Origin: an uncultured Planctomycetia bacterium
GTDB lineage: Bacteria; Omnitrophota; Gorgyraeia; 2-01-FULL-45-10
Direction of reading: 5' to 3'
DNA length: 64,000 nt
Assembly (NCBI GenBank): GCA_964352425.1
Contig: CAYGRZ010000001.1
Location: forward strand, 64,672 to 128,671
Each line of letters starts with the position of its first letter. The first letter of the stretch is position 1. Position numbers and translations under genes: made by a program. Below are positions 20,223 to 33,594 of this stretch, piece by piece. The notes beneath the pieces were generated by a model. It ran no database searches. It had not been told where the DNA came from and saw nothing but the letters and a program-made list of their open reading frames with translations.

Positions 20223-20644
20223 TGAAGGTCCACGAGACCGAGATCCGCGTCAGGTACCAGGAGACGGACAATATGGGCGTCGTGTACTACGCGAATTACC
20301 TCGTCTGGTTCGAGGTGGCGCGGACCGAATACATGCGCGCCTCAGGCATCTGCTACCGTACGATGGAAGAGAAGGGGATGTACATGATGGTCGCCGAGGC
20401 CCGCTGCCGGTATAAGGCACCCGCCCGATACGACGATATGGTCAAGATCCAGGCCTGGATATCGAAGATAAAAAATTCAAGCATGCAGTTCGAGTACAAA
20501 CTATGTATCGGGGACAAGCTTATTGCTACGGGCGAGTCGGTCCATGTATTTACGGGCCGTTCCGGAAGGCCCATGAGGATCCCCGAAGATATCAGAAGGC
20601 TTTGCAGGGAGGACGGTACCCCCCGCACGATCATTTCAGGTTGA
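20222..20644 (+). CDS. YbgC/4HBT-family acyl-CoA thioesterase
   Basis: MKVHETEIRVRYQETDNMGVVYYANYLVWFEVAR hot-dog fold; TAATG overlap with the GNAT stop. Confidence 0.85.
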   Translation: MKVHETEIRVRYQETDNMGVVYYANYLVWFEVARTEYMRASGICYRTMEEKGMYMMVAEARCRYKAPARYDDMVKIQAWISKIKNSSMQFEYKLCIGDKLIATGESVHVFTGRSGRPMRIPEDIRRLCREDGTPRTIISG

Positions 20645-22119: not shown

Positions 22120-22491
22120 ATGTGGAACGGCATCAACAGAAGAAGATTCCCGAGAGCAAATTACAAATGCCTCATATCGATAAAGAAGAGGCTCACGTCG
22201 AAGACCATATCGACGCATACCGAGAATATCGGCGCAGGCGGCATCTGCGTACTACTGAAGGAAGACCTCGGCCTGTTCCAGGGTGTTGATATCGAACTCT
22301 ATCTTGATGAAGCGAAGCCGCCGATAAAGAGCGGCGGTACGATCGTCTGGGTCGTGAAGAAGTCCGAGCCGAAGCAGAAGGGCGTCTACATGTACGACAC
22401 CGGCGTGGAGTTCATCGATATTCGCCCGGAAGACCGCGAGAAGATCACCGGGATCGTGGAAAACATACTGAAGGCGCGCAGACAAAAATAG
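22120..22491 (+). CDS. PilZ-domain protein (c-di-GMP receptor)
   Basis: RRRFPR (RxxxR) and TENIGAGGI (DxSxGG) PilZ motifs; GGAGGAG RBS before the ATG at 22120. Confidence 0.75.
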   Translation: MWNGINRRRFPRANYKCLISIKKRLTSKTISTHTENIGAGGICVLLKEDLGLFQGVDIELYLDEAKPPIKSGGTIVWVVKKSEPKQKGVYMYDTGVEFIDIRPEDREKITGIVENILKARRQK

Positions 22492-22511
22492 CATGTAAAT
22501 GCTATAAATAC

Positions 22512-22540
22512 TTGACAAGCGGGTGTTGGTGTGTTATACT
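22512..22540 (+). promoter_or_regulatory. sigma70-like promoter (TTGACA-17-TATACT)
   Basis: Near-consensus -35 and -10 with a 17-nt spacer, ~30 nt upstream of the 22572 RBS. Confidence 0.45.
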
Positions 22541-22571
22541 TAAGCAAATTCAGAATGGGGGGAGGTGACAG

Positions 22572-22904
22572 ATGATGAAGATGGTTAAGGGTATTATTAT
22601 ACTTGTTGCTATATTGATGGTTCTGAATATAGCGACAGCTAGTTACGCTCAGGATATGGGTAAGAAGCTCTACAGAGGTCTTGCTAACGTGGTGACCGGA
22701 TGGGTCGAGCTTCCGAAGAATATCTATGACACTAGCGTAGAGGACAACGTGCTCTCTGGTCTGACTGTCGGCTTAGCGAAAGGCGTTGGGATGACGATCG
22801 TGCGCACTGGCGCAGGAGTGTATGAAACAGCTACATTCCCGTTCCCCATACCGGAAGGCTATTGCCCGGTGTTAGAGCCGGAGTTTGTGTTCAGGGGAAA
22901 ATAA
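22572..22904 (+). CDS. small secreted protein (hypothetical, signal peptide)
   Basis: MMKMVKGIIILVAILMVLNIATASYA signal peptide; GGGGGAGGTGA RBS. Confidence 0.65.
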   Translation: MMKMVKGIIILVAILMVLNIATASYAQDMGKKLYRGLANVVTGWVELPKNIYDTSVEDNVLSGLTVGLAKGVGMTIVRTGAGVYETATFPFPIPEGYCPVLEPEFVFRGK

Positions 22905-22930
22905 TCCACAAGATTATATTTTCCGGAAAT

Positions 22931-22969
22931 AAGGGGATAGAAAGAACACTTTTTATCCCCTTATTTTTT
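22931..22969 (+). terminator. rho-independent terminator
   Basis: AAGGGGATA-13-TATCCCCTT stem followed by ATTTTTTAT. Confidence 0.55.
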
Positions 22970-23004
22970 ATACCGCCTGTATAACCCGCGCCAAGAGGAC
23001 TTAC

Positions 23005-23349
23005 GTGACCGAAAGAAGAAGGTTTTTAAGGTTTGAGACTGCCCTAAGCGCCATCTGCGATATCCTTCACGAGAAAAGCAAGGCCGCTTCCAGGGTAAAA
23101 AATATATCGAAGGAAGGCGCTCTGCTCGTCATCGACAAGAAGCTGAGAGAAGGCGACGAAATAAACCTCGCCGTTGATGTGCCCGGAGATAATGTCCCGA
23201 TATTCGCGACGTGCCAGGTTGCGTGGCAGAAGAACGCCGAGACAAATTATGAGACCGGCGTGAAGTTCACCAAGATCGCTAATTCCGATAAAGGCAGGCT
23301 TTTAGAATATATATATTTACAGTGGTTGAGGTTCCTGGACAGAGAGTAA
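23005..23349 (+). CDS. PilZ-domain protein
   Basis: RRRFLRF and NISKEGA PilZ motifs. Confidence 0.75.
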   Translation: MTERRRFLRFETALSAICDILHEKSKAASRVKNISKEGALLVIDKKLREGDEINLAVDVPGDNVPIFATCQVAWQKNAETNYETGVKFTKIANSDKGRLLEYIYLQWLRFLDRE

Positions 23350-23369
23350 CAAACACAAAACGGTGAGGT

Positions 23370-23732
23370 ATGGCGGAAGAAAAAAAAGAAGAACGGAAAG
23401 CAGAAACTCCAGCGCAGCCAACGGCCGCCGAAGCGCCCAAGGCAGAAGCGCCCAAGCAGGAAGCGCCTGCTGCAGCACCCGAGCCGCAGGCTCCGATGGC
23501 TGAGGCAGCTGGGCAGGCAGCGCCCGCAAACCCGGCGCCGGTCGCAAAGGAAGAGAAGAAGGAAACGGCGCCTGCGAAGAAAGAGAAGCCGGCGAACTGC
23601 GCGGGCTGCAAGAAGTCGATAAAGAAGAAGCGCTGGTATTACAGGGACGGCAACTACTATTGCACCAAGCGGTGCTGGACATCGGCGAAGAAGAAGGCGG
23701 AGATACCGCAAGAGACCGCGCCGGCAAGCTGA
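23370..23732 (+). CDS. Ala/Pro/Glu/Lys-rich protein with a C-terminal zinc-ribbon-like Cys motif
   Basis: Low-complexity N-terminus; CAGCKK...YYCTKRCW. Confidence 0.55.
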   Translation: MAEEKKEERKAETPAQPTAAEAPKAEAPKQEAPAAAPEPQAPMAEAAGQAAPANPAPVAKEEKKETAPAKKEKPANCAGCKKSIKKKRWYYRDGNYYCTKRCWTSAKKKAEIPQETAPAS

Positions 23733-23738
23733 TAGATT

Positions 23739-24299
23739 ATGTCGAAGGTGCAGATCCCACCCAACGAAGCCCTTTATCCGGTTCCCGTTGTCCTCGTAAG
23801 CTGCCTGGACAAAGCCAATAAGAGAGCCAACGTCATAACGATAGCGTGGTGCGGCATCGTGGCGTCGCAGCCGCCGCAGATATCGGTTTCGATCCGGCCA
23901 TCGCGCCATTCCCACGCCCTGATAACAGCCGAGAGATCGTTCGTCATAAACATCCCCACAAGCCGGATCATGGAAAAGGCCGACCTCTGCGGCATCCTTT
24001 CCGGGAAAGAGACCGATAAGTTCAAGGCCTGCTCGTTCACCGCCATCCCGGCATCAAAGGTATCCGCCCCGATGATACAAGAGTGCCCTGTCAATATCGA
24101 ATGCAAGCTTAAGGAAGTGCTGAAGCTCGGCTCCCATGACGTCTTCATCGGCGAGGTCGTGGCCGTCCACGCCGATCAGTCCGTCGTCAATAACAAGGGC
24201 CGCATCGACTACGGCAAGACTGAGCCATTCGTCTTCAACCAGGGCGAATACTGGGACCTCGGCAAAAAGATCGGCTCCTATGGCTGCTCCTCAAAATAG
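23739..24299 (+). CDS. flavin reductase-like (FMN-binding split-barrel) protein
   Basis: VVLVSC...NVITIAWCGIV...FVINIPT pattern typical of flavin reductase domains. Confidence 0.8.
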   Translation: MSKVQIPPNEALYPVPVVLVSCLDKANKRANVITIAWCGIVASQPPQISVSIRPSRHSHALITAERSFVINIPTSRIMEKADLCGILSGKETDKFKACSFTAIPASKVSAPMIQECPVNIECKLKEVLKLGSHDVFIGEVVAVHADQSVVNNKGRIDYGKTEPFVFNQGEYWDLGKKIGSYGCSSK

Positions 24300-24777
24300 A
24301 GACGCCCGAAAGAGACCCTCCTATATATTCCTGGTCAGCGCCTGCCTCGCAGGCATACACTGTACTTATAAAGGAAAGAATAAGCTGGACAGGCGCGTCA
24401 GGAGACTCGCGGACCTTGGCCTCGCCCTGCCCGTGTGCCCGGAAGTGATGGGCGGCTCATCGGCTCCCCGCCAGACGTGCGAGATAGTCGGCGGAGACGG
24501 CGCCGACGTGCTCGACAAAAAGGCGAGAGTGGTAACGCCCTCGGGGCAGGACATTTCGCGCATAGTGCTCAAAGGCGCCCGCGAGGCGTTGCGGATGGCA
24601 CAGAGATGCGGGATAAAGAAGGCCATACTGAAGTCAAAAAGCCCGTCATGCGGATGCGGCCATATATATGACGGGACATTCACCCGCCGCCTGAAGAAGG
24701 GTGACGGCGTAATGGCAGCGCTGCTGCGCCGCAACCATATCAGGGTATATACCGAAAAGGACAAAGCGCATGCCTAG
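24280..24777 (+). CDS. DUF523-family protein (TudS-like Fe-S protein)
   Basis: YIFLVSACLAGIHCTYKG...PVCPEV...SPSCG Cys motifs of DUF523; start overlaps the upstream gene by 20 nt. Confidence 0.7.
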   Translation: MAAPQNRDARKRPSYIFLVSACLAGIHCTYKGKNKLDRRVRRLADLGLALPVCPEVMGGSSAPRQTCEIVGGDGADVLDKKARVVTPSGQDISRIVLKGAREALRMAQRCGIKKAILKSKSPSCGCGHIYDGTFTRRLKKGDGVMAALLRRNHIRVYTEKDKAHA

Positions 24778-25846
24778 CAAAGTATACTACATACAATCGG
24801 ATGCCTCAGACTCGGTGACATCAGTATCTGAGAAACTGGCGAAGCTGATCGATACAAGCGGCGTCCTCGGCTGTATACAGAAGGACGATTTTACGGCCAT
24901 CAAGATGCACTTCGGCGATGAGGGCAACACAGGGCATATCAGGCATGAATGGGCACGCGAGGCCGCACGGCACGTCAGCAGGAAGACGGCCAACGCCTTC
25001 CTGGCCGACTCGAATGTAATATACAAGATCGGTAAGCGCGCTCATTCGGTAGAGCATCTGAAGATCGCCAACGAGCACGGGTTTAACCTGAACAATATCG
25101 GCCTGCCCATCCTGATAGCGGACGGGCTGCGCGGCAGGAACTTTGTCGAGGTGCCGGTTGACGGAAAGCATTTCAGCAAAGTTAAGATAGCTTCTGACTT
25201 TGCCGACTGTGACAGCATCATCGCGATGTCGCACATGACCGGCCATATAGTGACCGGCATGGGCTGCGCTATCAAGAACATCGGCATGGGCTGCGCGGCC
25301 AGGCGCGGTAAATACGAACAGCACTGCGGGGCTGCTCCGGACGTGGTTCCTGAGCATTGTGTGGGTTGCGGAGCGTGCGTCAACGTCTGTCCTGCAGGCT
25401 GCCTGACGCTCAAGGGAAAGGTGATCTCCTTCGCAAAAGAGAAATGCCTGGGCTGCGGCGAGTGCGCAGTCGTATGCAAAACGAAGGCCATAGAGATACG
25501 GTGGAGCGAGACGCTTGAAAACCTGCAGGAAAAGATGGTAGAATATGCCTGCGGGCTGGTCAAGGCAGTACGCGGGAATCTCGGGTACATAAATTTCCTG
25601 ATCAAGGTGACGAAGGACTGCGACTGCCTGGCAAAGGACGATCCGAGGATCGTCCGGGACCTCGGGATCCTCGCATCCCGCGATCCGGTCGCTATCGATA
25701 CGGCATCCGTGGACCTCATAGTGAAAGCGGCCGGCAGCGACGTCTTCAAGGCAGGGTATCCGGAGACGGACTGGTCAGTGCAGTTACAATACGCCGCCGC
25801 GTTCGGGCTCGGCAGCAGGGACTACGAATTAGAGGTAGTGAAATAA
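24770..25846 (+). CDS. DUF362-domain protein with an inserted 2x[4Fe-4S] ferredoxin module
   Basis: CVGCGACVNVCP and CLGCGECAVVC ferredoxin motifs inside a DUF362-like scaffold. Confidence 0.8.
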   Translation: MPSKVYYIQSDASDSVTSVSEKLAKLIDTSGVLGCIQKDDFTAIKMHFGDEGNTGHIRHEWAREAARHVSRKTANAFLADSNVIYKIGKRAHSVEHLKIANEHGFNLNNIGLPILIADGLRGRNFVEVPVDGKHFSKVKIASDFADCDSIIAMSHMTGHIVTGMGCAIKNIGMGCAARRGKYEQHCGAAPDVVPEHCVGCGACVNVCPAGCLTLKGKVISFAKEKCLGCGECAVVCKTKAIEIRWSETLENLQEKMVEYACGLVKAVRGNLGYINFLIKVTKDCDCLAKDDPRIVRDLGILASRDPVAIDTASVDLIVKAAGSDVFKAGYPETDWSVQLQYAAAFGLGSRDYELEVVK

Positions 25847-26196
25847 TGAATAAGGGCGACTGCATCTTCTGCAGGATCGTACGTAAAGAGATACCCGCCA
25901 CGATAGTCTTCGAAGATAAGACAACCCTGGCGTTCGAGGACGCCAAGCCGCAGGCGCCCGTACATATTCTCATCGTCCCGAAAAACCACATCGAGAAGAC
26001 CGCAGACCTCTCAAGCGCGGACATGCACATGATCGGTGAGCTCATCCTCACTGCGAAAGATATAGCGAAACAGCGGAATATCCAGGAATCGGGATACAGG
26101 ATCGTCCTGAATTGCAACCGGGACGCCGGCCAGGAGGTGTTCCATATACACCTGCACCTGCTCGGAGGCAGAAAATTCTCCTGGCCGCCGGGATAA
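25846..26196 (+). CDS. histidine-triad nucleotide-binding protein (HINT)
   Basis: CIFCRIV...HIHLHLLGG HIT motif; 116 aa. Confidence 0.85.
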   Translation: MNKGDCIFCRIVRKEIPATIVFEDKTTLAFEDAKPQAPVHILIVPKNHIEKTADLSSADMHMIGELILTAKDIAKQRNIQESGYRIVLNCNRDAGQEVFHIHLHLLGGRKFSWPPG

Positions 26197-26212
26197 TATA
26201 AGGAGTACCACA

Positions 26213-26587
26213 ATGGCTCAGCAAGAGAGAAGAAGGGCTCCCCGCATAGATGACGAGGAGTTGTCGCTGGAGCTGCACGCGGGTAATTTTGACGCGATGG
26301 CCCATACGCTGAACATCAGCGCGTCCGGCCTGTACTGCAAGGTCGACAGGGAGATGCCGCTGATGTCGAGGGTCAAGCTGATGTTGATGATCCCGGATCA
26401 GTCCGGCGCCGCCAAAGAGGTCAGGAATGTCGAAGTGGAGGGCGTGGTGGTCAGGGCCCATCCGGTGATCATCGACGGCCAGATCAAGCACTACGATGTC
26501 GCCATATTCTTCGACAGCCTCCCGCCGAAGGCCCGCGAGCTGATAGCGGGCTATATCGCCCGCAAAAAGGGCGGCGCCGGCAGGTAG
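26213..26587 (+). CDS. PilZ-domain protein
   Basis: RRRAPRI and LNISASGL PilZ motifs. Confidence 0.7.
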   Translation: MAQQERRRAPRIDDEELSLELHAGNFDAMAHTLNISASGLYCKVDREMPLMSRVKLMLMIPDQSGAAKEVRNVEVEGVVVRAHPVIIDGQIKHYDVAIFFDSLPPKARELIAGYIARKKGGAGR

Positions 26588-26600
26588 CGCGAATTTTAAG

Positions 26601-27128
26601 ATGGGCAAGATCGGGAAGCCGCACAAAGTCAAGCTGATCGTCGGATTGCTGTCGAACGATATCCCGGCGATCGAAAAGGCCACTATCCTACTGAAGAGGG
26701 AGTTCGGCAGGACGGACTTCGAAAGCGGGTGCCTTAACTTCACCCACACCGACTATTACGAAGGCGAGATGGGGACTTCCTTGAAGCGCAAATTCCTCAG
26801 CTTTGCAAAGCCGTTTAGTCTGGACCATATATGCGCGGCCAAGCTCAGGACCGACAGGCTGGAAAAGACCTTCATGCGCCGAGGCGGGCGCACGGTCAAC
26901 ATCGACCCCGGATACGTCGACTGTTCGAAGCTCGTGCTCTTCTCGACAAAAGATTATACTCACAGGATATACCTGGAGAAGGGGATTTTCGCGGAAGTCA
27001 CACTGTTCTATAAAGGCGGGACGTTCAAGGCCTGGCCGTGGACATATCCGGATTACAAGAGCGCCCCGTACATCGATATATTCAATTCGATCAGGGAGAT
27101 CTATACAACAGGGACCTCTCAGTGCTGA
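26601..27128 (+). CDS. conserved hypothetical protein (DUF4416-like)
   Basis: 175 aa ORF with an RBS; no recognisable catalytic motif. Confidence 0.65.
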   Translation: MGKIGKPHKVKLIVGLLSNDIPAIEKATILLKREFGRTDFESGCLNFTHTDYYEGEMGTSLKRKFLSFAKPFSLDHICAAKLRTDRLEKTFMRRGGRTVNIDPGYVDCSKLVLFSTKDYTHRIYLEKGIFAEVTLFYKGGTFKAWPWTYPDYKSAPYIDIFNSIREIYTTGTSQC

Positions 27129-27700
27129 TAAAGAAGAAGAGCCTCATCGTAGCGCTTGTATCGAGTTTCGTAATATGCCTCGTCCTGATCATGACGCTCG
27201 TCGGATACGCCATATACCTCGAATTGAAAGACGAGGAGTCGAGGAAGGTGTATCAGGCCATGCTCCAGAAAGTGAATGCGCAGTATTACGCTAAACATAT
27301 CGAAGTGGCGCGGCTGGGCGCTACGGTTGAGTCCGCCGGCGCGCTTAAAGGCCAACCGGTCGTCGAGGGCATTGTCAGGAACAGCGGGTATAAAGACATA
27401 TCGGACATCCTGCTGAAAGTGAAGTTCCTCGACCGCGACGGCGCCATAGTGTATGAGGCGGTATTCCACCCGCAGGAGCCGTCGCTTGGCTCTTCAAGCC
27501 TTTCGAAGGTCTCGATCCCTTATTTTTCAGAGCACTCAAAAACCGTCATCAGGCCTGAAGGGTCTCTTCCATTTAAACGGATACTCACTAACTGCCCCGC
27601 GGAGATCGTCGGTGAACTCAAAAACGGGAAGGCCGCTAAGGGTGTGGCCGGCAGATGGTCCGGCACGTTCGATTACGAGATCCTCGCCATAAACTTCTAG
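27122..27700 (+). CDS. membrane-anchored hypothetical protein (GTG start inferred)
   Basis: N-terminal TM LIVALVSSFVICLVLIMTLVGYAIY; in-frame GTG overlaps the upstream stop. Confidence 0.5.
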   Translation: MLIKKKSLIVALVSSFVICLVLIMTLVGYAIYLELKDEESRKVYQAMLQKVNAQYYAKHIEVARLGATVESAGALKGQPVVEGIVRNSGYKDISDILLKVKFLDRDGAIVYEAVFHPQEPSLGSSSLSKVSIPYFSEHSKTVIRPEGSLPFKRILTNCPAEIVGELKNGKAAKGVAGRWSGTFDYEILAINF

Positions 27701-27708
27701 ACCCCAAT

Positions 27709-29418
27709 ATGAGAAATATTTATATCGCGGTCGCTGCGTTCCTCCTCATCAGCCTCGTCCTCTTCATCTTATCATTCGTCTTCCTGGACATCGCGAAACA
27801 TACAACCTACCATTACATCGTCAATGCCGGCGGGCGCGACATCGGCACCATCCGCGTCGATACATTCATCACGGAAGACAAACTGATCTATAAATCTGCG
27901 GCCAACATGCCGTGCGCGCCGCAATTCACGGAATACAGGACGCGGCTCGACCTGGACAGGAAATATAATCTCGAAAGCTTCACCAAGGAGAGGACGGCCG
28001 GCCGGGCCACGGATCTTATCTACATTGAAATTTTCAGGAACATGGCCTCGTTCGTATCGAGATTTCAGTCAAAGTTCGCCTGCGTCGAGGGCATGCCGGT
28101 GAAGAGGGGCACATTCGTATTTGAGGAAGACGCGCCGGTCACCTATATCCCGCTCATAGAAAATTATAATTTTATCAGAGGCCGGTCCCAGGGATTTAGT
28201 GCGCTTATCCCGGCTGCGGCGTTGGGTATGCCCCCGATGAAACGGTTTGTCATCCTGACATCACTGCGGGATGAATACGTCAAGATCGGGCCGAGGAAGA
28301 TCAAGACCGAAAACCTCGTGGTGAAGATACGCGATTACCCGCAGGCGAACATATGGGTGTCAAAGGCCGACAGGGCCATCATCAGGATCGAGATACCGTC
28401 GCAGAACCTCACAATAACGAGGGCCTTCGGTCTCAAGGCGCTGCAGGCAAGGCAATACCGGCCGAAGGCCGATGGCTACGCTACGCGGGAGGTCACCGTC
28501 AAATCCAGGTCCGCGGAACTGGGCGGCAGCCTGGCCATCCCATCCGGCGAGGGCGCATTCCCCGCCGTCCTGCTCGTGTGGGGCCAGGGCGCGCAGGACA
28601 GATATCATCAGGGCCTCTTCGCATCGGTCGCGGACTATCTGGCGAAGAACGGTTTCTGCGTCTTAAGCCTCGACAAGCGCGGCGTAGGCTCCAGCGGCGG
28701 CGACATCGCATCGACGACTGCCGCTGATATCGTCGATGACATAGATGCTGCGGTCTCATTTCTGGCAAGCCGGCCGCAGGTCGATGCCAGGATGATCGCG
28801 CTGATAGGGCACGGCAGGGGGGCCTCTTATGCGATGAAAGCTGTTACAAGAAACGAGGCCGTTCGCGGGTTAATCCTGATGTCGCCGTCTATCGGCGCTG
28901 CTTACGATACGCGCTCACGCCTGGAAACGCTCAAGGCAGCTGCTTCCAGGACGAGATGGAGCGATGAATACCTGAGCCTTGTCGCCAGGACTCTTGAGGA
29001 GACCGAAAGCAGGGTCCTGGCAACGAAGGGAAACTGGGCTTATATCCTGGGCAAGAAATGTTTCATGGGGAGCCTGAGGGAAGAGATGGGCGATAAGCCC
29101 ATAGAAACGATAAGCAGGGTGAAGGTGCCGGTCCTTATCCTGCAGGGCGGCAATGATGATGAGGCCCTGGGAGAATCCGGTTCATATCTGGACAAGGCGC
29201 TGTCAGATGCCGGCAACCAGGCGCGAACCCTGACCTATTATGCTTATCTTGGACCGTTCCTGGGGGAGGCTGTCAATGACGGCATCCACCGGATACATTA
29301 CGAGACAGACAAGCAGGTGCTGGAAAATATAAAAAGTTGGCTCAACAAGCTGCCGGCCCAAGCCGCACGCGCGCCTGAAGAGGTACCGACGGAGCAGTCG
29401 GCACCCGCAGGCTCGTAA
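27709..29418 (+). CDS. membrane-anchored alpha/beta-hydrolase-fold protein (S9/dienelactone-hydrolase-like); nucleophile position reads GHGRGA
   Basis: TM anchor, then an alpha/beta hydrolase C-terminal region (VLLVWGQGAQ...LIGHGRGASYAM...LILQGGND). Confidence 0.8.
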   Translation: MRNIYIAVAAFLLISLVLFILSFVFLDIAKHTTYHYIVNAGGRDIGTIRVDTFITEDKLIYKSAANMPCAPQFTEYRTRLDLDRKYNLESFTKERTAGRATDLIYIEIFRNMASFVSRFQSKFACVEGMPVKRGTFVFEEDAPVTYIPLIENYNFIRGRSQGFSALIPAAALGMPPMKRFVILTSLRDEYVKIGPRKIKTENLVVKIRDYPQANIWVSKADRAIIRIEIPSQNLTITRAFGLKALQARQYRPKADGYATREVTVKSRSAELGGSLAIPSGEGAFPAVLLVWGQGAQDRYHQGLFASVADYLAKNGFCVLSLDKRGVGSSGGDIASTTAADIVDDIDAAVSFLASRPQVDARMIALIGHGRGASYAMKAVTRNEAVRGLILMSPSIGAAYDTRSRLETLKAAASRTRWSDEYLSLVARTLEETESRVLATKGNWAYILGKKCFMGSLREEMGDKPIETISRVKVPVLILQGGNDDEALGESGSYLDKALSDAGNQARTLTYYAYLGPFLGEAVNDGIHRIHYETDKQVLENIKSWLNKLPAQAARAPEEVPTEQSAPAGS

Positions 29419-29426
29419 TATTAGGT

Positions 29427-29455
29427 TTGACTTTATTTTTTTCGTATGATATACT
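29427..29455 (+). promoter_or_regulatory. sigma70-like promoter (TTGACT-17-TATACT)
   Basis: Consensus-like hexamers with a 17-nt spacer, ~95 nt upstream of the PilZ gene at 29553. Confidence 0.45.
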
Positions 29456-29552
29456 CCGACAATATTACGCCGGGAACAGGAAATTGCGGCAATCCTGCCG
29501 TAAAGCCGGACTGATCGAAACGAAGAATGCGCTACAGGAGCGACCCAGACCT

Positions 29553-29957
29553 ATGGTAAAAAAGGTACAGGATATTTTCGTAGAGAGAAGGCGCTACGTT
29601 CGCCTGCAGACGCCGATACCGATCGCCTATACCGTCCCGCAGACCGGCAGCGTGCATACCACCAGCACCAAGAATATTTCCGCGGACGGCCTGAGGCTGG
29701 AGACCCATGATAGGGCGCTCAAAGAGGGCGACCTGATAGAGTTGAAGATGACGATTGCAGGCGCGCCGAATCCCGTTCATGCCAAAGGCAAGGTTATCTG
29801 GAAGAAGAAGATGTCGCTCGAAGACGCCGCGCCCTTCGACTGCGGCATAGAGTTCGCCGAGATCGAAGAGGACAACAAAAATACGTTCCTGAAGTTCCTG
29901 TGCGACCTCATATATGATATCAAAAAGGAGCCAAAACATGCCCGTAAGAAAGAATGA
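29553..29957 (+). CDS. PilZ-domain protein
   Basis: RRRYVRLQ and KNISADGL PilZ motifs; internal ATG of ORF 29427 (the upstream part overlaps the promoter). Confidence 0.75.
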   Translation: MVKKVQDIFVERRRYVRLQTPIPIAYTVPQTGSVHTTSTKNISADGLRLETHDRALKEGDLIELKMTIAGAPNPVHAKGKVIWKKKMSLEDAAPFDCGIEFAEIEEDNKNTFLKFLCDLIYDIKKEPKHARKKE

Positions 29958-30291
29958 TCCGTCCCTCAGCATGATCGTCGGGTCCGTCACGCTTGCGCTC
30001 TTGTGTATATGCGGATGTTCGATCGTCAATACGATACCCCGGCCGGATCAGGTGATGAAGACGCCTCTCGGCACGGAATCGATCAAGATAGGGATGACGA
30101 AGCAGGAGGTCGAGTCAAAATGGGGCAAGCCCGATTCTGTGCAGACGGTCGAGAATAAGAAGCGGTGGGCAGGAGCGCGCGAGATGTGGGTGTACCGGGC
30201 CAGTTACGGATCGATACCGGTCGATGCCGGCTACCTCTCGGAGACCAAGAAGCTGTACTTCGACGGCGTTAACCTCACCGAGATCGAATAG
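29938..30291 (+). CDS. BamE/SmpA-OmlA-like lipoprotein
   Basis: LALLCICGCS lipobox; GMTKQEVESKWGKPDSV BamE-like motif. Confidence 0.6.
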   Translation: MPVRKNDPSLSMIVGSVTLALLCICGCSIVNTIPRPDQVMKTPLGTESIKIGMTKQEVESKWGKPDSVQTVENKKRWAGAREMWVYRASYGSIPVDAGYLSETKKLYFDGVNLTEIE

Positions 30292-30318
30292 CCTGCGCGC
30301 CGGGGGAAGGTTCGATAC

Positions 30319-30669
30319 ATGCTGCGATTGATGTGTAAATCAAAGATCCACAGGGCAACATTGACGAAGGTCGATCTCCACTACGAAGGATCGATTGGCA
30401 TCGATACACTGCTGCTGAAAAAAGCCGACATCCTTCCGGGCGAGATCGTCGCAGTGGTCAATATCAATAACGGCTCCCGGTTCGAGACCTATGCGTTTGA
30501 AGAGAAGGCCGGTTCAGGCACGATCGGCCTCTACGGCGCCGCGGCGCATCTCGGCAATGTGGGCGACCTGGTCATCATCCTGTCATACGGCATGTTCGAG
30601 GACAAGGACGCCCGGCGCGTCAAGACCAAACGCGTCTACGTCGACGCCAAGAACAGGATCGCTCCATAG
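30319..30669 (+). CDS. panD: aspartate 1-decarboxylase
   Basis: MLRLMCKSKIHRATLTKVDLHYEGSIGID... colinear with E. coli PanD, including the Gly-Ser self-processing site. Confidence 0.9.
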   Translation: MLRLMCKSKIHRATLTKVDLHYEGSIGIDTLLLKKADILPGEIVAVVNINNGSRFETYAFEEKAGSGTIGLYGAAAHLGNVGDLVIILSYGMFEDKDARRVKTKRVYVDAKNRIAP

Positions 30670-30671
30670 TC

Positions 30672-31157
30672 ATGGCTGATCTCACAATCAGGAAATTCCC
30701 CGATTTAGTCCTTCGCACCAAGGCCTCCAAGGTCACAGCGGTCACACAAGCGGTAAGGCAGATGCTGAGCGAGATGGCGCAGACCATGTATATAAGCCAG
30801 GGCGTCGGCCTGGCCGCTGTCCAGGTCGGCATCAACAAGCAGCTTGCGGTCATCGACGTGGGCGAAGGGCTTATCAAGATGATCAACCCCGTCATCGTGA
30901 AGCGGGAAGGCTCCGAGGCGTTCGAGGAAGGGTGCCTGAGCTGTCCGGGGGCCTCCGTCAAGATCAAGAGGGCAAAGCAGGTCGTGGTGAGCTTCCTGAA
31001 CGAGAAGGGCGATATGATGGAGCTCCGGGCGCATGGTTTGCTGGCGCGCGCCGTCCAGCACGAGCTCGACCACTTATCCGGCAAGCTCATCATCGATTAT
31101 ATGGGCCCCTTAAAGAAGATGCTCGCGGGAAAAAAGATCAGGAGGAACAGATCATGA
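30672..31157 (+). CDS. def: peptide deformylase
   Basis: GVGLAAVQVG, EGCLSCPG and QHELDHL motifs. Confidence 0.9.
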   Translation: MADLTIRKFPDLVLRTKASKVTAVTQAVRQMLSEMAQTMYISQGVGLAAVQVGINKQLAVIDVGEGLIKMINPVIVKREGSEAFEEGCLSCPGASVKIKRAKQVVVSFLNEKGDMMELRAHGLLARAVQHELDHLSGKLIIDYMGPLKKMLAGKKIRRNRS

Positions 31158-31600
31158 CGTTGTACGAGAAGATGGAGAGTGATATGAAGAGCGCCCTCAA
31201 GGGCGGGGAGGCGGGCAAGCTTTCGGTGCTGAGGATGCTCGTCGCGGCGATCAGGCAGTTTGAGATCGACAAGAATGTCAAGGCGCCGGCAGAGGCCGAT
31301 GTCCTGCAGATACTCTCGCGCCAGATCAAGCAGCACAGGGAATCGATCGAGCAATTCAACGGCGGCAACAGGCCGGACCTGGCGATGAAAGAAGCGGCGG
31401 AGCTGAAGATACTCGAGGCGTACATGCCCGCACAGCTCGGCGAAGGCGAGCTGCTGGAGATCGTACAGGCTGCTGTCGCTGAGGCGGGCGCGGCAACGAA
31501 AGCTGACATGGGTAAGGTCATGAAACTCGTTATGGAGAAGGCACAGGGCAGGGCGGACGGGAAGACGATAAACCAGCTCGTGATGAAATTCCTGAAATGA
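31154..31600 (+). CDS. GatB/YqeY-domain protein
   Basis: MTLYEKMESDMKSALKGGEAGKLSVLRML... YqeY family; ATGA overlap with def. Confidence 0.8.
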   Translation: MTLYEKMESDMKSALKGGEAGKLSVLRMLVAAIRQFEIDKNVKAPAEADVLQILSRQIKQHRESIEQFNGGNRPDLAMKEAAELKILEAYMPAQLGEGELLEIVQAAVAEAGAATKADMGKVMKLVMEKAQGRADGKTINQLVMKFLK

Positions 31601-31633
31601 TCATGATGCCGGCCAGGTAGGGCCGTATTTTCC

Positions 31634-31698
31634 TTGATACTTCGGTAGATCTATTGTATAGTAAACCCCGTTAGAAAGGACGGGGCTTTCTAACGGGG
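31634..31698 (+). promoter_or_regulatory. sigma70-like promoter (TTGATA-17-TATAGT) followed by a perfect 13-bp inverted repeat around +1
   Basis: ccccgttagaaag-gacgggg-ctttctaacgggg (31666-31698) directly downstream of the -10. Confidence 0.45.
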
Positions 31699-31724
31699 TA
31701 AATCAATTGCGAAAGGAGGAAAAG

Positions 31725-32066
31725 ATGAAGAAAAGGTATATAGTTTTTTTGTGCGTTGCGATCGCCGCGTGCGTAGTGTGTGCCGCAACGGCCGGCGCTG
31801 CAGAGGAGACGGCGAAGAGTTTCTGGCAGAAGCTCTTTAACTACCCTGCCAATGTGACGAAAGAGTCTGTCAATGTCATCGCGGACACAGGAAAGAAGGG
31901 GACCGAGACCGTCGTCAATGAGGTAAAGACTATCGGGAAGGTCACCTCCGGAGACACCGACAAGGCAAAGGACCTGGTCACCGAGCCGGTAAAAGGAACG
32001 GTTGAGACCGCCAGGACGGCAGTCGAGGGAACCGCGAACGTCCCCGTTACCGCAGCAAAAGAATAA
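31725..32066 (+). CDS. small secreted protein (hypothetical)
   Basis: MKKRYIVFLCVAIAACVVCAATAGAA signal peptide; AAAGGAGGA RBS. Confidence 0.6.
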   Translation: MKKRYIVFLCVAIAACVVCAATAGAAEETAKSFWQKLFNYPANVTKESVNVIADTGKKGTETVVNEVKTIGKVTSGDTDKAKDLVTEPVKGTVETARTAVEGTANVPVTAAKE

Positions 32067-32180
32067 GACGCCCGTTGCGAGTAAGCCACGTCAAGCGTAT
32101 AGATGAATAAACGGGAGAAGCCATATCATCCGAAAATAGATATGGCTTTTTCTGTAGAGACTAATTATACTATTGATATC

Positions 32181-32705
32181 ATGCGATCGCGCGTTTCACT
32201 TATCCTGACGGTGATCGTCACCGCCGTCATCACTATAGCATTGTACCGGCCGGTATCCGTTGTGGCGTTCAGGGTCGCGGAGCCGTACTACGGTTTTCCG
32301 ATCAAGGCCGCCGCTACCGGCGGCAAGCTCGTCATACGTAATGACGTTCTCGGCGACGGCGATTTCGGCACCAAGCGCGGCGGCGGGCGGTCGCATGCCG
32401 GCATCGACATCCTGGCTGCCGTAGGAACGCCTGTCTTCGCTTCGAAGAGCGGCATCGCGTTCTGCGGAAACGTGCCGACGGGATACGGGCGGTATGTGAT
32501 GATCTATCATCCCGACGGCACGCAGACGATGTACGGCCATCTCTCCAACTGGGCCGTCGGGTCGACACAGCAGGTCCGCAAAGGCGAGATGATCGGATAT
32601 GTGGGCAAGACCGGTAATGCCAAAAGCTTGCTTATGCAGGCGCATCTGCACTTCGAGATCAGGAAGGGCGGTGAGCCGGTCGCGCCGCAGCCATTGATGC
32701 GGTAA
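32181..32705 (+). CDS. M23-family metallopeptidase (start uncertain: 32103, 32142 or 32181)
   Basis: HAGIDI...YHPDGTQTMYGHL...HLHFEIR M23 motifs; TM anchor MRSRVSLILTVIV; a candidate promoter TTGCGA-17-TATAGA at 32075-32103 argues against the 32103 start. Confidence 0.7.
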   Translation: MRSRVSLILTVIVTAVITIALYRPVSVVAFRVAEPYYGFPIKAAATGGKLVIRNDVLGDGDFGTKRGGGRSHAGIDILAAVGTPVFASKSGIAFCGNVPTGYGRYVMIYHPDGTQTMYGHLSNWAVGSTQQVRKGEMIGYVGKTGNAKSLLMQAHLHFEIRKGGEPVAPQPLMR

Positions 32706-32728
32706 TTCTACAAAGGGAGACAAGTCCT

Positions 32729-32866
32729 ATGAAAAAATATGCTCTTGCGGTGCTGCTGCTCGCCGTCTGTGCCGTACTGCTCGGCTGCGGCGAAACGGTA
32801 TCGGGGGTCGGTAAAGACGCCAGCAGGATGGGGCGCGGCGTCAATACGTTCTTCTTCAGGCAATAA
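32729..32866 (+). CDS. entericidin (EcnA/EcnB)-like small lipoprotein, 45 aa (not in the supplied ORF track)
   Basis: MKKYALAVLLLAVCAVLLGCGETVSGVGKDASRMGRGVNTFFFRQ; AAGGGAGA RBS; matches the entericidin pattern of lipobox plus G-VG-D...G. Confidence 0.6.
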   Translation: MKKYALAVLLLAVCAVLLGCGETVSGVGKDASRMGRGVNTFFFRQ

Positions 32867-32880
32867 TCGAGCAGGCCCTT

Positions 32881-33594
32881 ATGCCAATTCGTATACGTGA
32901 GATCGACAACATCGGGATACTTGACGTTGACGGGCGGCTCGATATCAATTCGTCCGACATCATCGAGACCGTCGGATGGATGACCAGCACCGGCAAGGTC
33001 AACATGATCATGAACTTCGAGAATGTCGACCTCGTCGATTCCAGCGGCCTTTCGGTGCTGGCGATAGCGTATAAGAACGTTGTGAACCATAAAGGCAGGC
33101 TGAAGTTCGCCGGTGTCCCTCCGTACGTCATGGAGCTTTTCAAGATTGCAAAACTTGATGCCGTCTTCGAAGTCTACCCCGACGAGGAGTCGGCTTTCAG
33201 CAGCTTCCACGAAGAAGAGATAGACCATATCCCGCTGCGGCGCAGGTTCCCGCGTCTCGACATCCATCTCAGCGTCAAATTCGTCCTCTCAAGCGACCGG
33301 AAACACCCGAAGGCTTATAAGGGGCAGGTCATTAATATCAGCGCGGCCGGTCTCTACGTATACACCCCTCACACCTTTCCGGTCAACAGCTCCTTACACA
33401 TGGTCTTCAGCCTCCCGAACAGGCAGGCCGTACTGACGGCCGACGGCAAGGTATCGTGGCTCTCCGACAAGGAGATCCAGTCGCATTATTCTCCCGGCAT
33501 GGGCATCGCGTTCAGCCGCCTCACGCCCGCAAAAGAGCGGGTGATCGTTGACTTTATCGATAAGAACATAAGCCACAGGACAGAGCCGGTATGA
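32881..33594 (+). CDS. STAS-domain (anti-sigma-antagonist-like) / PilZ-domain fusion protein
   Basis: N-terminal STAS-like region (DVDGRLDINS...VDSSGLSVL) and C-terminal PilZ motifs (RRRFPRL, INISAAGL). Confidence 0.75.
   Translation: MPIRIREIDNIGILDVDGRLDINSSDIIETVGWMTSTGKVNMIMNFENVDLVDSSGLSVLAIAYKNVVNHKGRLKFAGVPPYVMELFKIAKLDAVFEVYPDEESAFSSFHEEEIDHIPLRRRFPRLDIHLSVKFVLSSDRKHPKAYKGQVINISAAGLYVYTPHTFPVNSSLHMVFSLPNRQAVLTADGKVSWLSDKEIQSHYSPGMGIAFSRLTPAKERVIVDFIDKNISHRTEPV

What the first reader, a model, noticed from the sequence alone, without database searches (positions are those of the whole stretch)
22120..33594. Dense c-di-GMP effector island: five PilZ-domain proteins in ~11.5 kb, with a GAF-HD-GYP phosphodiesterase nearby
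PilZ signatures (RxxxR plus D/NxSxxG) occur in ORFs at 22120, 23005, 26213, 29553 and in the C-terminus of 32881. A GAF-HD-GYP protein (11951-13480) lies 9 kb upstream. Each PilZ gene is a small single-domain reader, except the STAS fusion. At least two are preceded by their own consensus-like sigma70 promoter (22512, 29427). This density of stand-alone PilZ readers interleaved with envelope and secreted-protein genes is unusual and suggests a locally concentrated second-messenger output layer.
Basis: partly seen in the sequence, partly recalled or inferred. Interest (0 to 1): 0.6.

Follow-up and report, generated by a model that had tools for sequence, protein, structure and literature searches.

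The report
Conserved PilZ gene block in Omnitrophota
Five small genes for PilZ-type receptors of the bacterial signal molecule c-di-GMP really do sit within 11.5 kb. The arrangement is an old, inherited feature shared by many uncultured Omnitrophota bacteria, not a chance cluster or a mobile island.

Summary
All five ORFs score above the Pfam PilZ threshold. All five have RxxxR, and four have D/NxSxxG. PilZ1 has Gly in place of Ser, as do all nine members of its ortholog group. The upstream gene is a genuine GAF-HD-GYP protein.

The window comes from a Candidatus Omnitrophota genome. The five PilZ paralogs are only 18-30% identical to each other, so they are old copies. Each has positional orthologs in other Omnitrophota species. 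Ten genomes, including this one, carry at least five PilZ genes within 12 kb, and about 98 kb of flanking DNA carries none.

The block appears to have grown from a widespread Omnitrophota core: PilZ, Zn-ribbon gene, PilZ, DUF4416, radical SAM. This core lies about 5 kb downstream of the conserved HD-GYP gene. PilZ2, PilZ4 and STAS-PilZ5 each start a tightly packed gene run. STAS-PilZ is a conserved family named only from Omnitrophota, with 280 homologs.

It is not a horizontally acquired island. GC content is uniform, housekeeping genes are interleaved, and more than 36 kb is collinear with relatives. Neither c-di-GMP binding nor any coordinated role was tested. Genome-wide PilZ counts could not be obtained.

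Verdict: a new variant of a known kind, of moderate interest.

The parts
11951..13480 (+). PocR-like/GAF/HD-GYP protein (509 aa), a putative c-di-GMP phosphodiesterase
   Evidence: HD_5 scores 139.6 bits, with GAF and a weak PocR hit. HD363, HHE416 and GYP424 are present. The 120 best homologs are 66-92% identical and about 507 aa long, and all that carry an organism name are from Omnitrophota. The gene lies upstream of the PilZ core in at least 19 loci and at the same distance in L089 and L090.
20631..21185 (-). T2SS GspB/GspC-like membrane protein, co-oriented with the ATPase gene and overlapping it by 4 nt
   Evidence: Weak T2SSB (20.8 bits) and T2SSC hits, both below threshold. The position is conserved in relatives.
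21182..21997 (-). ExeA/GspA-like AAA ATPase (TIGR03015, XrtA/PEP-CTERM system-associated ATPase), transcribed divergently from PilZ1
   Evidence: TIGR03015 scores 332.5 bits against a cut-off of 324.5. AAA_22 scores 95.7 bits. It is conserved next to the PilZ genes across Omnitrophota loci.
22120..22491 (+). PilZ1, single-domain PilZ (123 aa) with variant motif NIGAGG
   Evidence: PF07238 scores 52.5 bits. GGAGG lies 8 nt before the ATG. Its ortholog group has nine members, all with Gly at the Ser position.
22512..22540 (+). Promoter-like site (TTGACA-17-TATACT, with TG), in front of the TIGR04073 gene
   Evidence: 11/12 match. It lies after the PilZ1 stop codon at 22491.
22572..22904 (+). TIGR04073-family small secreted protein (exosortase system-associated), followed by a hairpin and a T-run near 22933-22968
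   Evidence: TIGR04073 scores 103 bits against a cut-off of 50. The hairpin was read directly from the sequence. Relatives share 74-88% identity.
23005..23349 (+). PilZ2, single-domain PilZ (114 aa), first gene of a tightly packed run from 23005 to 29418
   Evidence: PF07238 scores 61.4 bits. Motifs are RRRFLR and NISKEG. Gaps within the run are 20 nt or less. Its ortholog group has nine members.
23370..23732 (+). Small protein with an A/P/K/E-rich N-terminus and a C-terminal CxxC...CxxxC Zn-ribbon-like motif
   Evidence: No family scores above threshold. It is found between the two PilZ genes across Omnitrophota loci.
26213..26587 (+). PilZ3, single-domain PilZ (124 aa), 13 nt upstream of DUF4416; ortholog of the widespread 'core B' PilZ
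   Evidence: PF07238 scores 31.5 bits. Motifs are RRRAPR and NISASG. Mean identity to the core B group is 34%, against about 20% to the other groups.
26601..27128 (+). DUF4416 protein (175 aa), the most constant neighbour of PilZ
   Evidence: PF14385 scores 194 bits. In 41 of 77 loci a PilZ domain ends within 250 nt upstream. The AF2 model has pLDDT 91.4, with no confident structural match.
29427..29455 (+). Promoter-like site in front of PilZ4
   Evidence: 10/12 match with TG.
29553..29957 (+). PilZ4, single-domain PilZ (134 aa), first gene of the run PilZ4, BamE-like, PanD, Def, YqeY
   Evidence: PF07238 scores 53.9 bits. Its ortholog group has ten members. The overlap with the next gene is also seen in L083 and L084.
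29914..30291 (+). BamE/OsmE-like small lipoprotein, overlapping the end of PilZ4
   Evidence: Weak BamE hit at E = 0.0033. It is always downstream of the PilZ4 orthologs.
32881..33594 (+). STAS-PilZ5 fusion (237 aa), first gene of the run STAS-PilZ, pentapeptide/K-channel, radical SAM, GAF-ANTAR
   Evidence: STAS scores 55 bits and PilZ 53.6 bits. There are 280 homologs. R120, R121, R125, N152 and G157 are invariant. In the AF2 model the N-half matches SpoIIAA/RsbV and the C-half matches the Alg44 PilZ domain.
34622..35593 (+). Radical SAM protein (323 aa), part of the widespread core downstream of DUF4416 or STAS-PilZ
   Evidence: Radical_SAM and Fer4_12 hits. It lies directly after DUF4416 in about 35 loci and directly after STAS-PilZ in L083-L085.

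Best explanation
The region is a vertically inherited, long-conserved stretch of a Candidatus Omnitrophota chromosome. Five small PilZ-domain genes sit in it at fixed positions; most close relatives have six. The copies diverged long ago and are 18-30% identical to each other.

Each PilZ gene has its own constant neighbours:
- PilZ1 lies between a divergently transcribed PEP-CTERM-type ExeA-like ATPase and a TIGR04073 secreted protein.
- PilZ2 lies between TIGR04073 and a Zn-ribbon protein.
- PilZ3 lies 13 nt upstream of DUF4416.
- PilZ4 overlaps a BamE-like lipoprotein gene.
- PilZ5 is fused to a SpoIIAA-like STAS domain and starts a run ending in radical SAM and GAF-ANTAR genes.

The block appears to have grown from a widespread Omnitrophota core (PilZ, Zn-ribbon gene, PilZ, DUF4416, radical SAM). 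That core lies a few kb downstream of a conserved GAF-HD-GYP gene.

Inferred mechanism, not shown: the HD-GYP enzyme, together with cyclases encoded elsewhere, sets the c-di-GMP level. Each PilZ protein binds c-di-GMP through RxxxR and D/NxSxxG and then acts as an adaptor on its own target by protein-protein contact. In STAS-PilZ the RxxxR arm lies in the flexible interdomain linker. Ligand binding would therefore reposition the STAS domain, as it repositions the N-terminal domain in YcgR/PlzD-type two-domain PilZ proteins.
For: PilZ identity and motifs.

Organism.

Positional orthologs of every paralog (ortholog groups of 5-10 members including the window protein, 44-60% identity within a group against about 20% between groups).

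Independent gene calls with precomputed Pfam labels show six PilZ genes in about 10 kb in the same order in L083 and L084. L085, whose left end cuts off PilZ1, shows five in the same order.

Ten genomes carry at least five PilZ genes within 12 kb, and about 98 kb of flanks carry none.

Widespread core and PilZ-DUF4416 adjacency (41 of 77 loci).

The compact locus L059 keeps four PilZ genes and their partner genes within about 5 kb, without the interleaved housekeeping genes.

HD-GYP linkage.

Tight gene spacing, with a PilZ gene first in three runs. Promoter-like sites fall at three of the gaps between runs.

Binding residues are invariant in the STAS-PilZ family, and the RxxxR linker is predicted to be disordered.
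Against: No binding or expression data exist.

PilZ1 lacks the motif Ser in all nine members of its group, so it may bind weakly or not at all.

The whole stretch of more than 36 kb, including unrelated housekeeping genes, is collinear with close relatives. Part of the conserved order may therefore reflect slow genome rearrangement rather than selection for linkage.

No diguanylate cyclase gene is in the window or in any related locus.

The genome-wide PilZ count is unknown, so the enrichment over background rests only on the DNA I could see.

The partners of the PilZ proteins are inferred from adjacency alone. Several neighbours (TIGR04073, the BamE-like protein) are extracytoplasmic and could not touch a cytoplasmic PilZ directly.
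Confidence: 0.7

Rival explanations
1. Passive synteny. The PilZ genes are real receptors but functionally unrelated to each other and to their neighbours. They sit together only because this part of the Omnitrophota chromosome is rarely rearranged.
For: The region is collinear with L089 and L090 from ThiC to PilZ2, including many unrelated housekeeping genes. The downstream order GAF-ANTAR, NadE, GSIII is also shared.
Against: Distant Omnitrophota, at about 50% protein identity, keep PilZ, Zn-ribbon, PilZ, DUF4416 and radical SAM with overlapping or near-touching genes, while their surroundings differ. L059 keeps the PilZ genes and their partners but not the housekeeping genes. L035 and L067 added further PilZ genes at the same locus.
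Confidence: 0.2
2. Chance clustering in a genome that simply has very many PilZ genes.
For: Omnitrophota carry PilZ arrays at other loci, one or several after giant genes (bioRxiv 10.1101/2023.11.21.568195). The genome-wide count here is unknown.
Against: There are 0 PilZ genes in the other 52.5 kb of the window and in about 45 kb of flanks in relatives. For the window alone the probability is 0.0044. The same paralogs occur at the same positions in ten or more species.
Confidence: 0.03
3. A recent tandem amplification, or a horizontally acquired c-di-GMP island.
For: Several same-family genes lie close together on one strand.
Against: The paralogs are only 18-30% identical. GC content is 0.51-0.57 across the region, within the range of the rest of the window, 0.51-0.59. 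No integrase, transposase or adjacent tRNA gene was seen in or next to the block. The block is conserved in many species.
Confidence: 0.02
4. Some or all of these PilZ domains are non-binding 'type II' domains, like Xanthomonas/Pseudomonas PilZ, or bind another ligand. They would act as constitutive adaptors independent of c-di-GMP.
For: The PilZ1 group has NxGxGG instead of D/NxSxxG in all nine members. PilZ3 scores only 31.5 bits. The closest solved sequence match for the PilZ5 domain is the non-binding Xanthomonas PilZ (3cnr, E = 5e-4).
Against: 119 of the 135 full-length PilZ domains in these loci keep both motifs. The motif residues are invariant or nearly so in the STAS-PilZ family. Known non-binding PilZ proteins lack RxxxR, which all five proteins here have (established knowledge of the family).
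Confidence: 0.15

Closest known systems
Stand-alone single-domain PilZ adaptors (MapZ/PA4608, MotL of Shewanella, FilZ, CdbS of Myxococcus)
   Same: They are small proteins of about 115-135 aa consisting of one PilZ domain with RxxxR and D/NxSxxG, and are expected to work by binding a partner protein when loaded with c-di-GMP. MotL, FilZ and CdbS appeared in the literature searches. MapZ is cited from established knowledge.
   Different: No sequence match to any solved PilZ for PilZ1 or PilZ4. There are no flagellar or chemotaxis neighbours. Partners are unknown. Five or six paralogs sit in one conserved block.
Two-domain PilZ receptors with the RxxxR arm in the interdomain linker (YcgR, PlzD/VCA0042, PP4397, MotI/DgrA)
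   Same: STAS-PilZ5 also has its RxxxR motif in a flexible linker between an N-terminal domain and the PilZ barrel. The MotI/DgrA and Alg44 PilZ structures match the C-terminal half.
   Different: The N-terminal domain is a SpoIIAA/RsbV-type STAS domain, not a YcgR-N/PilZN domain. No solved chain covers both halves. No paper describing a STAS-PilZ fusion was found.
SpoIIAA/RsbV anti-sigma-factor antagonists (partner-switching STAS proteins)
   Same: The fold matches 1thn_B with TM-score 0.85 and rmsd 1.7 Å. Pfam STAS scores 55 bits. The window protein has the DSSG motif with the phosphorylatable Ser position.
   Different: At least 90% of the family has DYNG at that site, so phosphorylation is not a family feature. 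TIGR00377 scores 53.4 bits against a cut-off of 53.45, just below threshold. No RsbW/SpoIIAB-type kinase or PP2C phosphatase was found among the window genes scanned.
pilZ arrays downstream of Omnitrophota giant genes (bioRxiv 10.1101/2023.11.21.568195)
   Same: Same phylum, and one or several small pilZ homologs in a row at a conserved locus.
   Different: This is a different locus. No giant gene is present (the largest gene is GOGAT at 1511 aa). There are no solute-binding or transporter neighbours. Here the PilZ genes are interleaved with other genes and tied to DUF4416, radical SAM and ExeA-like genes.
Myxococcus TIGR02266 PilZ-type paralogous family
   Same: All five domains hit TIGR02266 at E = 2e-13 to 2.5e-5. 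Both are lineage-specific expansions of small PilZ-like domains.
   Different: Scores of 24-50 bits are well below the cut-off of 68.7, so these are not members. The phylum is also different.
HD-GYP c-di-GMP phosphodiesterases (RpfG type)
   Same: The HD_5 domain carries the HD, HHE and GYP motifs.
   Different: The sensor part is PocR-like plus GAF rather than a REC domain. A separate REC gene precedes the HD-GYP gene in L089 but not in the window.

Membership tests
PilZ domain (PF07238) | Profile score above the Pfam gathering threshold | tested here: met
   Scores are 52.5, 61.4, 31.5, 53.9 and 53.6 bits against 22.5.
PilZ domain (PF07238) | N-terminal RxxxR c-di-GMP-binding motif | tested here: met
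   RRRFPR, RRRFLR, RRRAPR, RRRYVR and RRRFPR in PilZ1 to PilZ5.
PilZ domain (PF07238) | (D/N)xSxxG motif | tested here: inconclusive
   Met in PilZ2-5 (NISKEG, NISASG, NISADG, NISAAG). Not met in PilZ1 (NIGAGG), and Gly replaces Ser in all nine members of its ortholog group.
PilZ domain (PF07238) | Six-stranded beta-barrel fold | tested here: met
   Tested for PilZ5 only. The AF2 C-terminal half matches the c-di-GMP-bound Alg44 and PA PilZ structures, with target TM-scores of 0.60-0.73.
PilZ domain (PF07238) | Binds c-di-GMP | not testable with these tools
   Needs DRaCALA, ITC or MST on purified proteins.
SpoIIAA/RsbV-type anti-sigma-factor antagonist (STAS) | STAS profile and fold | tested here: met
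   PF01740 scores 55 bits. Foldseek match to 1thn_B at E = 4e-8 with target TM-score 0.85. TIGR00377 scores 53.4 bits against a cut-off of 53.45, marginally below.
SpoIIAA/RsbV-type anti-sigma-factor antagonist (STAS) | Conserved phosphorylatable Ser in the DSSG loop | tested here: not met
   The window protein has DSSG (S54), but at least 90% of 30 family members have DYNG.
SpoIIAA/RsbV-type anti-sigma-factor antagonist (STAS) | Cognate anti-sigma kinase or PP2C phosphatase encoded nearby | tested here: not met
   No HATPase_c or PP2C hit among the window ORFs scanned or in the Pfam tables for L083-L085. One could be encoded elsewhere in the genome.
HD-GYP phosphodiesterase | HD_5 profile with HD, HHE and GYP motifs | tested here: met
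   139.6 bits. HD363, HHE416, GYP424.
HD-GYP phosphodiesterase | Hydrolyses c-di-GMP | not testable with these tools
   Needs an enzyme assay.
Genomic island (horizontally acquired module) | Deviant base composition, mobility genes, patchy distribution | tested here: not met
   GC is 0.51-0.57 in the region against 0.51-0.59 across the window. No integrase or transposase was found. Gene order is conserved across many species.
PEP-CTERM/exosortase system | Associated ATPase (TIGR03015) and TIGR04073 protein | tested here: met
   332.5 bits against 324.5, and 103 bits against 50.
PEP-CTERM/exosortase system | An exosortase (EpsH/XrtA) gene in the locus | tested here: not met
   No exosortase hit among the ORFs of 150 aa or more scanned against Pfam across the window. 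PEP-CTERM substrates were not searched for.

The most novel reading that the evidence does not exclude
The block is a c-di-GMP output hub widely conserved in Omnitrophota, in which paralogous PilZ adaptors head operons and each gates a different process. Two members would be new kinds of effector. The first is STAS-PilZ, a partner-switching module driven by c-di-GMP binding in the interdomain linker instead of by Ser phosphorylation. The second is a PilZ translationally coupled to DUF4416 and a radical SAM enzyme, which would place an uncharacterised radical SAM pathway under c-di-GMP control.
Probability: 0.2. Interest if true: 0.7.

Novelty: new variant of a known kind. Interest (0 to 1): 0.45.

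Why it matters
Omnitrophota are abundant, mostly ultra-small bacteria that have not been grown in pure culture and may depend on hosts or prey. I found nothing on how they use c-di-GMP beyond one note on pilZ genes after giant genes.

This locus provides a conserved, compact set of candidate receptors with fixed neighbours that can be tested directly:
- a STAS-PilZ family named only from Omnitrophota, which could link c-di-GMP to partner switching;
- a PilZ-DUF4416-radical SAM coupling, which offers a first functional lead for DUF4416;
- a naturally fixed Ser-to-Gly variant of the PilZ binding motif.

If the proteins do not bind c-di-GMP or prove functionally unrelated, the locus is simply an example of long-lived synteny.

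Tried and rejected
- A genome-contig scan with the 587-aa hydrolase alone found no relatives. It was replaced by a DUF4416 alignment.
- I tried to extend the view beyond the window ends to count more background PilZ genes. One protein was not on record and the other lay on a 4 kb contig. The 128.7 kb NCBI contig listed for the DUF4416 protein was not returned by the contig look-up. A genome-wide PilZ count was therefore not obtained.
- The DUF4416 structure is a confident AF2 model. The best Foldseek PDB hit has E = 7.5e-3 and TM-score about 0.4, to HPPK-type folds. I treat this as no assignment.
- Sequence searches of the PDB with PilZ4 and the radical SAM protein returned nothing, and PilZ1 gave only two matches at E = 1.2, which I treat as noise.
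- Literature searches for STAS-PilZ, for PilZ with anti-sigma antagonist, and for DUF4416 found nothing relevant.
- Motif searches for GGDEF and EAL in the window and for GGDEF in the related loci found only two chance matches (an EALVR in an antisense window ORF and a GGDEF in L043).
- A REC gene precedes the HD-GYP gene in L089 but is absent from the window.
- Rejected readings: recent tandem duplication (paralogs are 18-30% identical), a mobile island, and 22512 as a promoter for a PilZ gene.

Full report

Yes. Pfam PF07238 (PilZ, gathering score 22.5) hits all five ORFs:

| ORF | Name used here | Score |
|---|---|---|
| 22120-22491 | PilZ1 | 52.5 bits |
| 23005-23349 | PilZ2 | 61.4 bits |
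| 26213-26587 | PilZ3 | 31.5 bits |
| 29553-29957 | PilZ4 | 53.9 bits |
| 32881-33594 | STAS-PilZ5 | PilZ 53.6 bits, after an N-terminal STAS domain at 55.0 bits |

All five carry RRRxxR, which contains the RxxxR motif. Four carry NISxxG. PilZ1 has NIGAGG, with Gly at the Ser position.

An HMM built from the five domains finds no further PilZ anywhere in the six-frame translation of the window. That is five in 11.5 kb and none in the remaining 52.5 kb. If five genes were placed at random in 64 kb, the chance that all fall within this span is 0.0044.

The protein at 11951-13480 is a GAF plus HD_5 protein (139.6 bits) with HD363, HHE416 and GYP424. Independent gene calls on short Logan contigs of the same organism give the same boundaries and PilZ labels for PilZ1-3 and PilZ5.

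Two details of the finding need correction:
- The strong promoter-like site at 22512 (11/12 match) lies after the PilZ1 stop codon and in front of the next gene, a TIGR04073-family gene. Only 29427 (10/12) directly precedes a PilZ gene, PilZ4.
- The genes between the PilZ genes are a mixture. Some are envelope or secreted proteins: TIGR04073, a DUF3426-like protein, a membrane-anchored alpha/beta hydrolase, a BamE-like lipoprotein, a secreted 119-aa protein and an M23 peptidase. Others are ordinary cytoplasmic housekeeping genes: flavin reductase, DUF523, DUF362-ferredoxin, HIT, PanD, Def and YqeY.

**2. What organism and what kind of region?**

Homologs of the DUF4416, STAS-PilZ and HD-GYP proteins that carry organism names are all from Candidatus Omnitrophota/Omnitrophica. 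Most of the loci recovered with DUF4416 are titled Candidatus Omnitrophota MAGs.

The rest of the window is core chromosome: ThiC/ThiE, tRNA-Gly, an AddA-like helicase-nuclease, DHQ synthase, NadE, ammonium transporter, GS type III, GOGAT, KdpABC/KdpD and Mrp/Nuo-type subunits.

GC content in the region is 0.51-0.57, within the range of the rest of the window at 0.51-0.59. No mobility genes were seen. This is not an acquired island.

**3. Is the clustering conserved?**

I fetched 80 DUF4416 loci, one per species, with up to 10 kb on each side. I scanned them with an iterated PilZ HMM and with tblastn using every window protein.

One group of species shares the window's gene order: L003 (60-85% protein identity), L004, L006, L009, L011, L041, L079 and L080. 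The order is:

DHQS, GNAT, 4HBT, (T2SSB-like and ExeA-like ATPase on the minus strand), PilZ1, TIGR04073, PilZ2, Zn-ribbon, [flavin reductase, DUF523, DUF362], HIT, PilZ3, (PilZ3b), DUF4416, DUF3426-like, hydrolase, PilZ4, BamE-like, PanD, Def, YqeY, secreted protein, M23, STAS-PilZ5, (pentapeptide/K-channel), radical SAM, GAF-ANTAR.

Three further genomes were reached through STAS-PilZ homologs. Their independent gene calls and precomputed Pfam labels show six PilZ proteins in about 10 kb in the same order in L083 and L084. L085, whose left end cuts off PilZ1, shows five in the same order.

In all, ten genomes including the window have at least five PilZ genes within 12 kb. About 98 kb of sequence outside the block, in the window and five relatives, has none.

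The five window PilZ domains are only 18-30% identical to one another. Each falls into its own ortholog group of 5-10 members including the window protein, with 44-60% identity within a group and about 20% between groups. They are therefore old paralogs kept at fixed positions, not recent duplicates.

The window has lost one member. PilZ3b sits between PilZ3 and DUF4416 in L003, L004, L006, L008, L009 and L011. A seventh member of that group lies directly upstream of DUF4416 in L048.

**4. A widespread Omnitrophota core**

About 35 more distant Omnitrophota loci, at roughly 50% protein identity, carry a shorter arrangement: ExeA-like ATPase (minus strand), then PilZ, Zn-ribbon gene, PilZ, DUF4416, radical SAM. 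The genes overlap or nearly touch. In L012, for example, PilZ and DUF4416 overlap by 13 nt, and DUF4416 and the radical SAM gene overlap by 26 nt.

Among 77 loci with enough upstream sequence to judge, 41 have a PilZ domain ending within 250 nt of the DUF4416 start, and 39 have two PilZ genes within 1.3 kb. Nearly all loci titled as other phyla (Anaerolineae, Chloroflexota and most of those titled Planctomycetia) have no PilZ. A few titled 'uncultured Planctomycetales/Planctomycetia' do carry the PilZ pair.

PilZ3 is the ortholog of the PilZ next to DUF4416 in this core, with 34% mean identity against a background of about 20%. PilZ2 holds the position upstream of the Zn-ribbon gene. PilZ1, PilZ4 and STAS-PilZ5 are additions found only in the group of loci that share the window's gene order.

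In that group the core has been pulled apart by insertions, both of housekeeping genes and of further PilZ modules. The compact locus L059 argues that the PilZ-plus-partner pairs are the retained elements. It has TIGR04073, PilZ2, Zn-ribbon, PilZ, DUF4416, DUF3426-like, PilZ4, BamE-like and STAS-PilZ within about 5 kb, without the metabolic genes. L035 and L067 have added still more PilZ genes at the same place, reaching 8 and 7 full-length domains.

**5. The HD-GYP link**

Orthologs of the GAF-HD-GYP protein lie upstream of the PilZ core in at least 19 of the loci, in the order HIT, dGTPase, HD-GYP..., DHQS, ExeA-like, PilZ. Where the exact pattern was searched, the HHExxDGxGYP motif is intact.

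In two relatives that share the window's gene order, the whole stretch from ThiC to PilZ2 is collinear with the window. The distance from the HD-GYP start to the PilZ1 start is 10,167 nt in L089 and 10,353 nt in L090, against 10,169 nt in the window. HD-GYP, DUF4416 and STAS-PilZ homologs also list the same longest-contig lengths in a dozen or more cases, which suggests shared contigs.

The linkage is therefore old. But it is embedded in general collinearity, so functional coupling is only suggested, not shown. No GGDEF or EAL gene was found in the window, and no GGDEF gene in any of the related loci.

**6. Transcription units (inferred)**

Gene spacing and promoter- or terminator-like sites suggest these units:
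- PilZ1 alone.
- TIGR04073 alone, with a promoter-like site at 22512 and a hairpin plus T-run near 22933-22968.
- PilZ2 through the hydrolase (23005-29418), with all gaps 20 nt or less. This run contains PilZ3 and DUF4416.
- PilZ4, BamE-like, PanD, Def, YqeY, with a promoter-like site at 29427 and a terminator-like site at 31610.
- The secreted protein and M23.
- STAS-PilZ5, pentapeptide/K-channel, radical SAM, GAF-ANTAR.

Three runs thus begin with a PilZ gene. The overlap between PilZ4 and the BamE-like gene recurs in L083 and L084.

**7. The STAS-PilZ fusion**

There are 280 homologs at E ≤ 1e-5. The best 120 are nearly all 233-248 aa long (one is 295 aa) and all have STAS plus PilZ. Every one that carries an organism name is from Omnitrophota.

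In an alignment of 30 members (75% mean column identity), R120, R121, R125, N152 and G157 are invariant and S154 is at least 90% conserved. The SpoIIAA-type DSSG loop of the window protein is DYNG in at least 90% of members, so regulation by Ser phosphorylation is not a family trait.

The AF2 model has mean pLDDT 78. It shows two folded domains joined by a disordered linker at residues 113-127, which contains the RxxxR motif. The N-terminal half matches SpoIIAA/RsbV (target TM-score 0.85). The C-terminal half matches c-di-GMP-bound PilZ domains from Alg44, a Pseudomonas protein and MotI. No solved chain covers both halves.

By analogy with YcgR/PlzD-type proteins (established knowledge), c-di-GMP binding at the linker should change how the STAS domain is presented. 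The partner is unknown. In most genomes the next genes are radical SAM and GAF-ANTAR. The pentapeptide/K-channel gene is an insertion seen in the window, L003 and L011.

**8. Other neighbours**

The divergent ATPase meets the NCBIfam cut-off for the XrtA/PEP-CTERM system-associated ATPase (332.5 against 324.5 bits). The 110-aa secreted protein is a TIGR04073 exosortase-system-associated protein (103 against 50 bits). No exosortase was found in the window.

DUF4416 gives a confident model (pLDDT 91.4) but has no convincing structural relative, and no paper in the library mentions it.

**9. Comparison with what is known**

The parts are members of known families: PilZ, STAS and HD-GYP. Stand-alone PilZ adaptors are well described, for example MotL and FilZ. 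A preprint notes one or several pilZ genes after Omnitrophota giant genes, which is a different locus.

I found no description of the following:
- this conserved multi-PilZ block;
- the PilZ, Zn-ribbon, PilZ, DUF4416, radical SAM core;
- the STAS-PilZ family;
- the fixed NxGxGG variant of PilZ1.

**10. Verdict**

The most likely reading is a long-conserved set of c-di-GMP adaptor genes with individual partners, linked to an HD-GYP gene. I put about 0.7 on the overall picture, and less on any specific partner.

The main rival is passive synteny of unrelated genes, at about 0.2.

The main gaps are the genome-wide PilZ count and any biochemical evidence.

Novelty: a new variant of a known kind. 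Interest: moderate, 0.45.

Noticed in passing
window 26587-26601, compared with L003 9627-9956, L083 3795-4289 and L084 3900-4394: The window genome lacks a sixth PilZ gene, PilZ3b, which sits between PilZ3 and DUF4416 in most close relatives. Here only 13 nt separate PilZ3 from DUF4416.
   Followed up: partly
window 26601-27128 and 34622-35593; L012 10001-11489; L024, L030, L043, L044, L051, L081: DUF4416 and a PflA/NrdG-activase-like radical SAM gene are adjacent and overlapping in most Omnitrophota loci. In DUF4416 loci titled as other phyla they lie within 2-4 kb on opposite strands. This suggests a functional link for the uncharacterised DUF4416. Its AF2 model is confident (pLDDT 91.4) but has no convincing structural homolog.
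   Followed up: partly
window 13458-13727 (+): A conserved 89-aa ORF overlaps the end of the HD-GYP gene. It is also present in L089 (11511-11780) and L090 (11511-11777). It was not scanned against Pfam. Its sequence looks like a small winged-helix protein, but that is only my impression.
   Followed up: no
window 13753-16851 (+): An AddA-like UvrD helicase/PD-(D/E)XK nuclease (1032 aa) lies between HD-GYP and the SPOR-domain gene in the window, L089 and L090. It gave no hit at that position in the more distant Omnitrophota loci (e.g. L012), and lies downstream of the PilZ block in L059.
   Followed up: partly
window 32881-33594, residue S54: The window's STAS-PilZ has the SpoIIAA-type DSSG loop, whereas at least 90% of the family has DYNG. 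This may be a lineage-specific gain or retention of a phosphorylatable Ser.
   Followed up: partly
window 35574-36287, then 36532-52138: A GAF-ANTAR antiterminator-type regulator is followed by NadE, a sigma-like protein, a PPDK_N-domain protein, an ammonium transporter, GS type III and GOGAT. GAF-ANTAR, NadE and GSIII are also adjacent in L083-L085. This looks like a nitrogen-assimilation neighbourhood, possibly under ANTAR control.
   Followed up: no
window 56810-59008 (+): The KdpD-like protein after kdpABC shows KdpD, Usp, DUF4118 and GAF domains. No HisKA or HATPase_c hit appeared at E ≤ 1e-4, so it may be a kinase-less KdpD.
   Followed up: no
window 23370-23732 (+): A small protein with an Ala/Pro/Lys/Glu-rich N-terminus and a C-terminal CxxC-x17-CxxxC motif. 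It is conserved between the two core PilZ genes across Omnitrophota and matches no family model. It resembles TRASH or L24e-type zinc ribbons, but only from memory.
   Followed up: partly
L035 6131-18637 and L067 166-12652: Two other Omnitrophota species have expanded the same locus to 8 and 7 full-length PilZ domains, including tandem pairs that form ortholog groups not present in the window.
   Followed up: partly
L089 9578-9991: A stand-alone REC (response regulator receiver) gene sits directly upstream of the HD-GYP gene in this relative. The window instead has a 675-nt stretch there holding only a short lipoprotein-like ORF (11468-11860).
   Followed up: partly
L018 13664-15094, L034 13724-15127, L023 11928-12779: Some of the more distant Omnitrophota loci carry a second HD-GYP-motif gene 2-5 kb downstream of the PilZ-DUF4416-radical SAM core, so the core is flanked by HD-GYP genes on both sides.
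   Followed up: no
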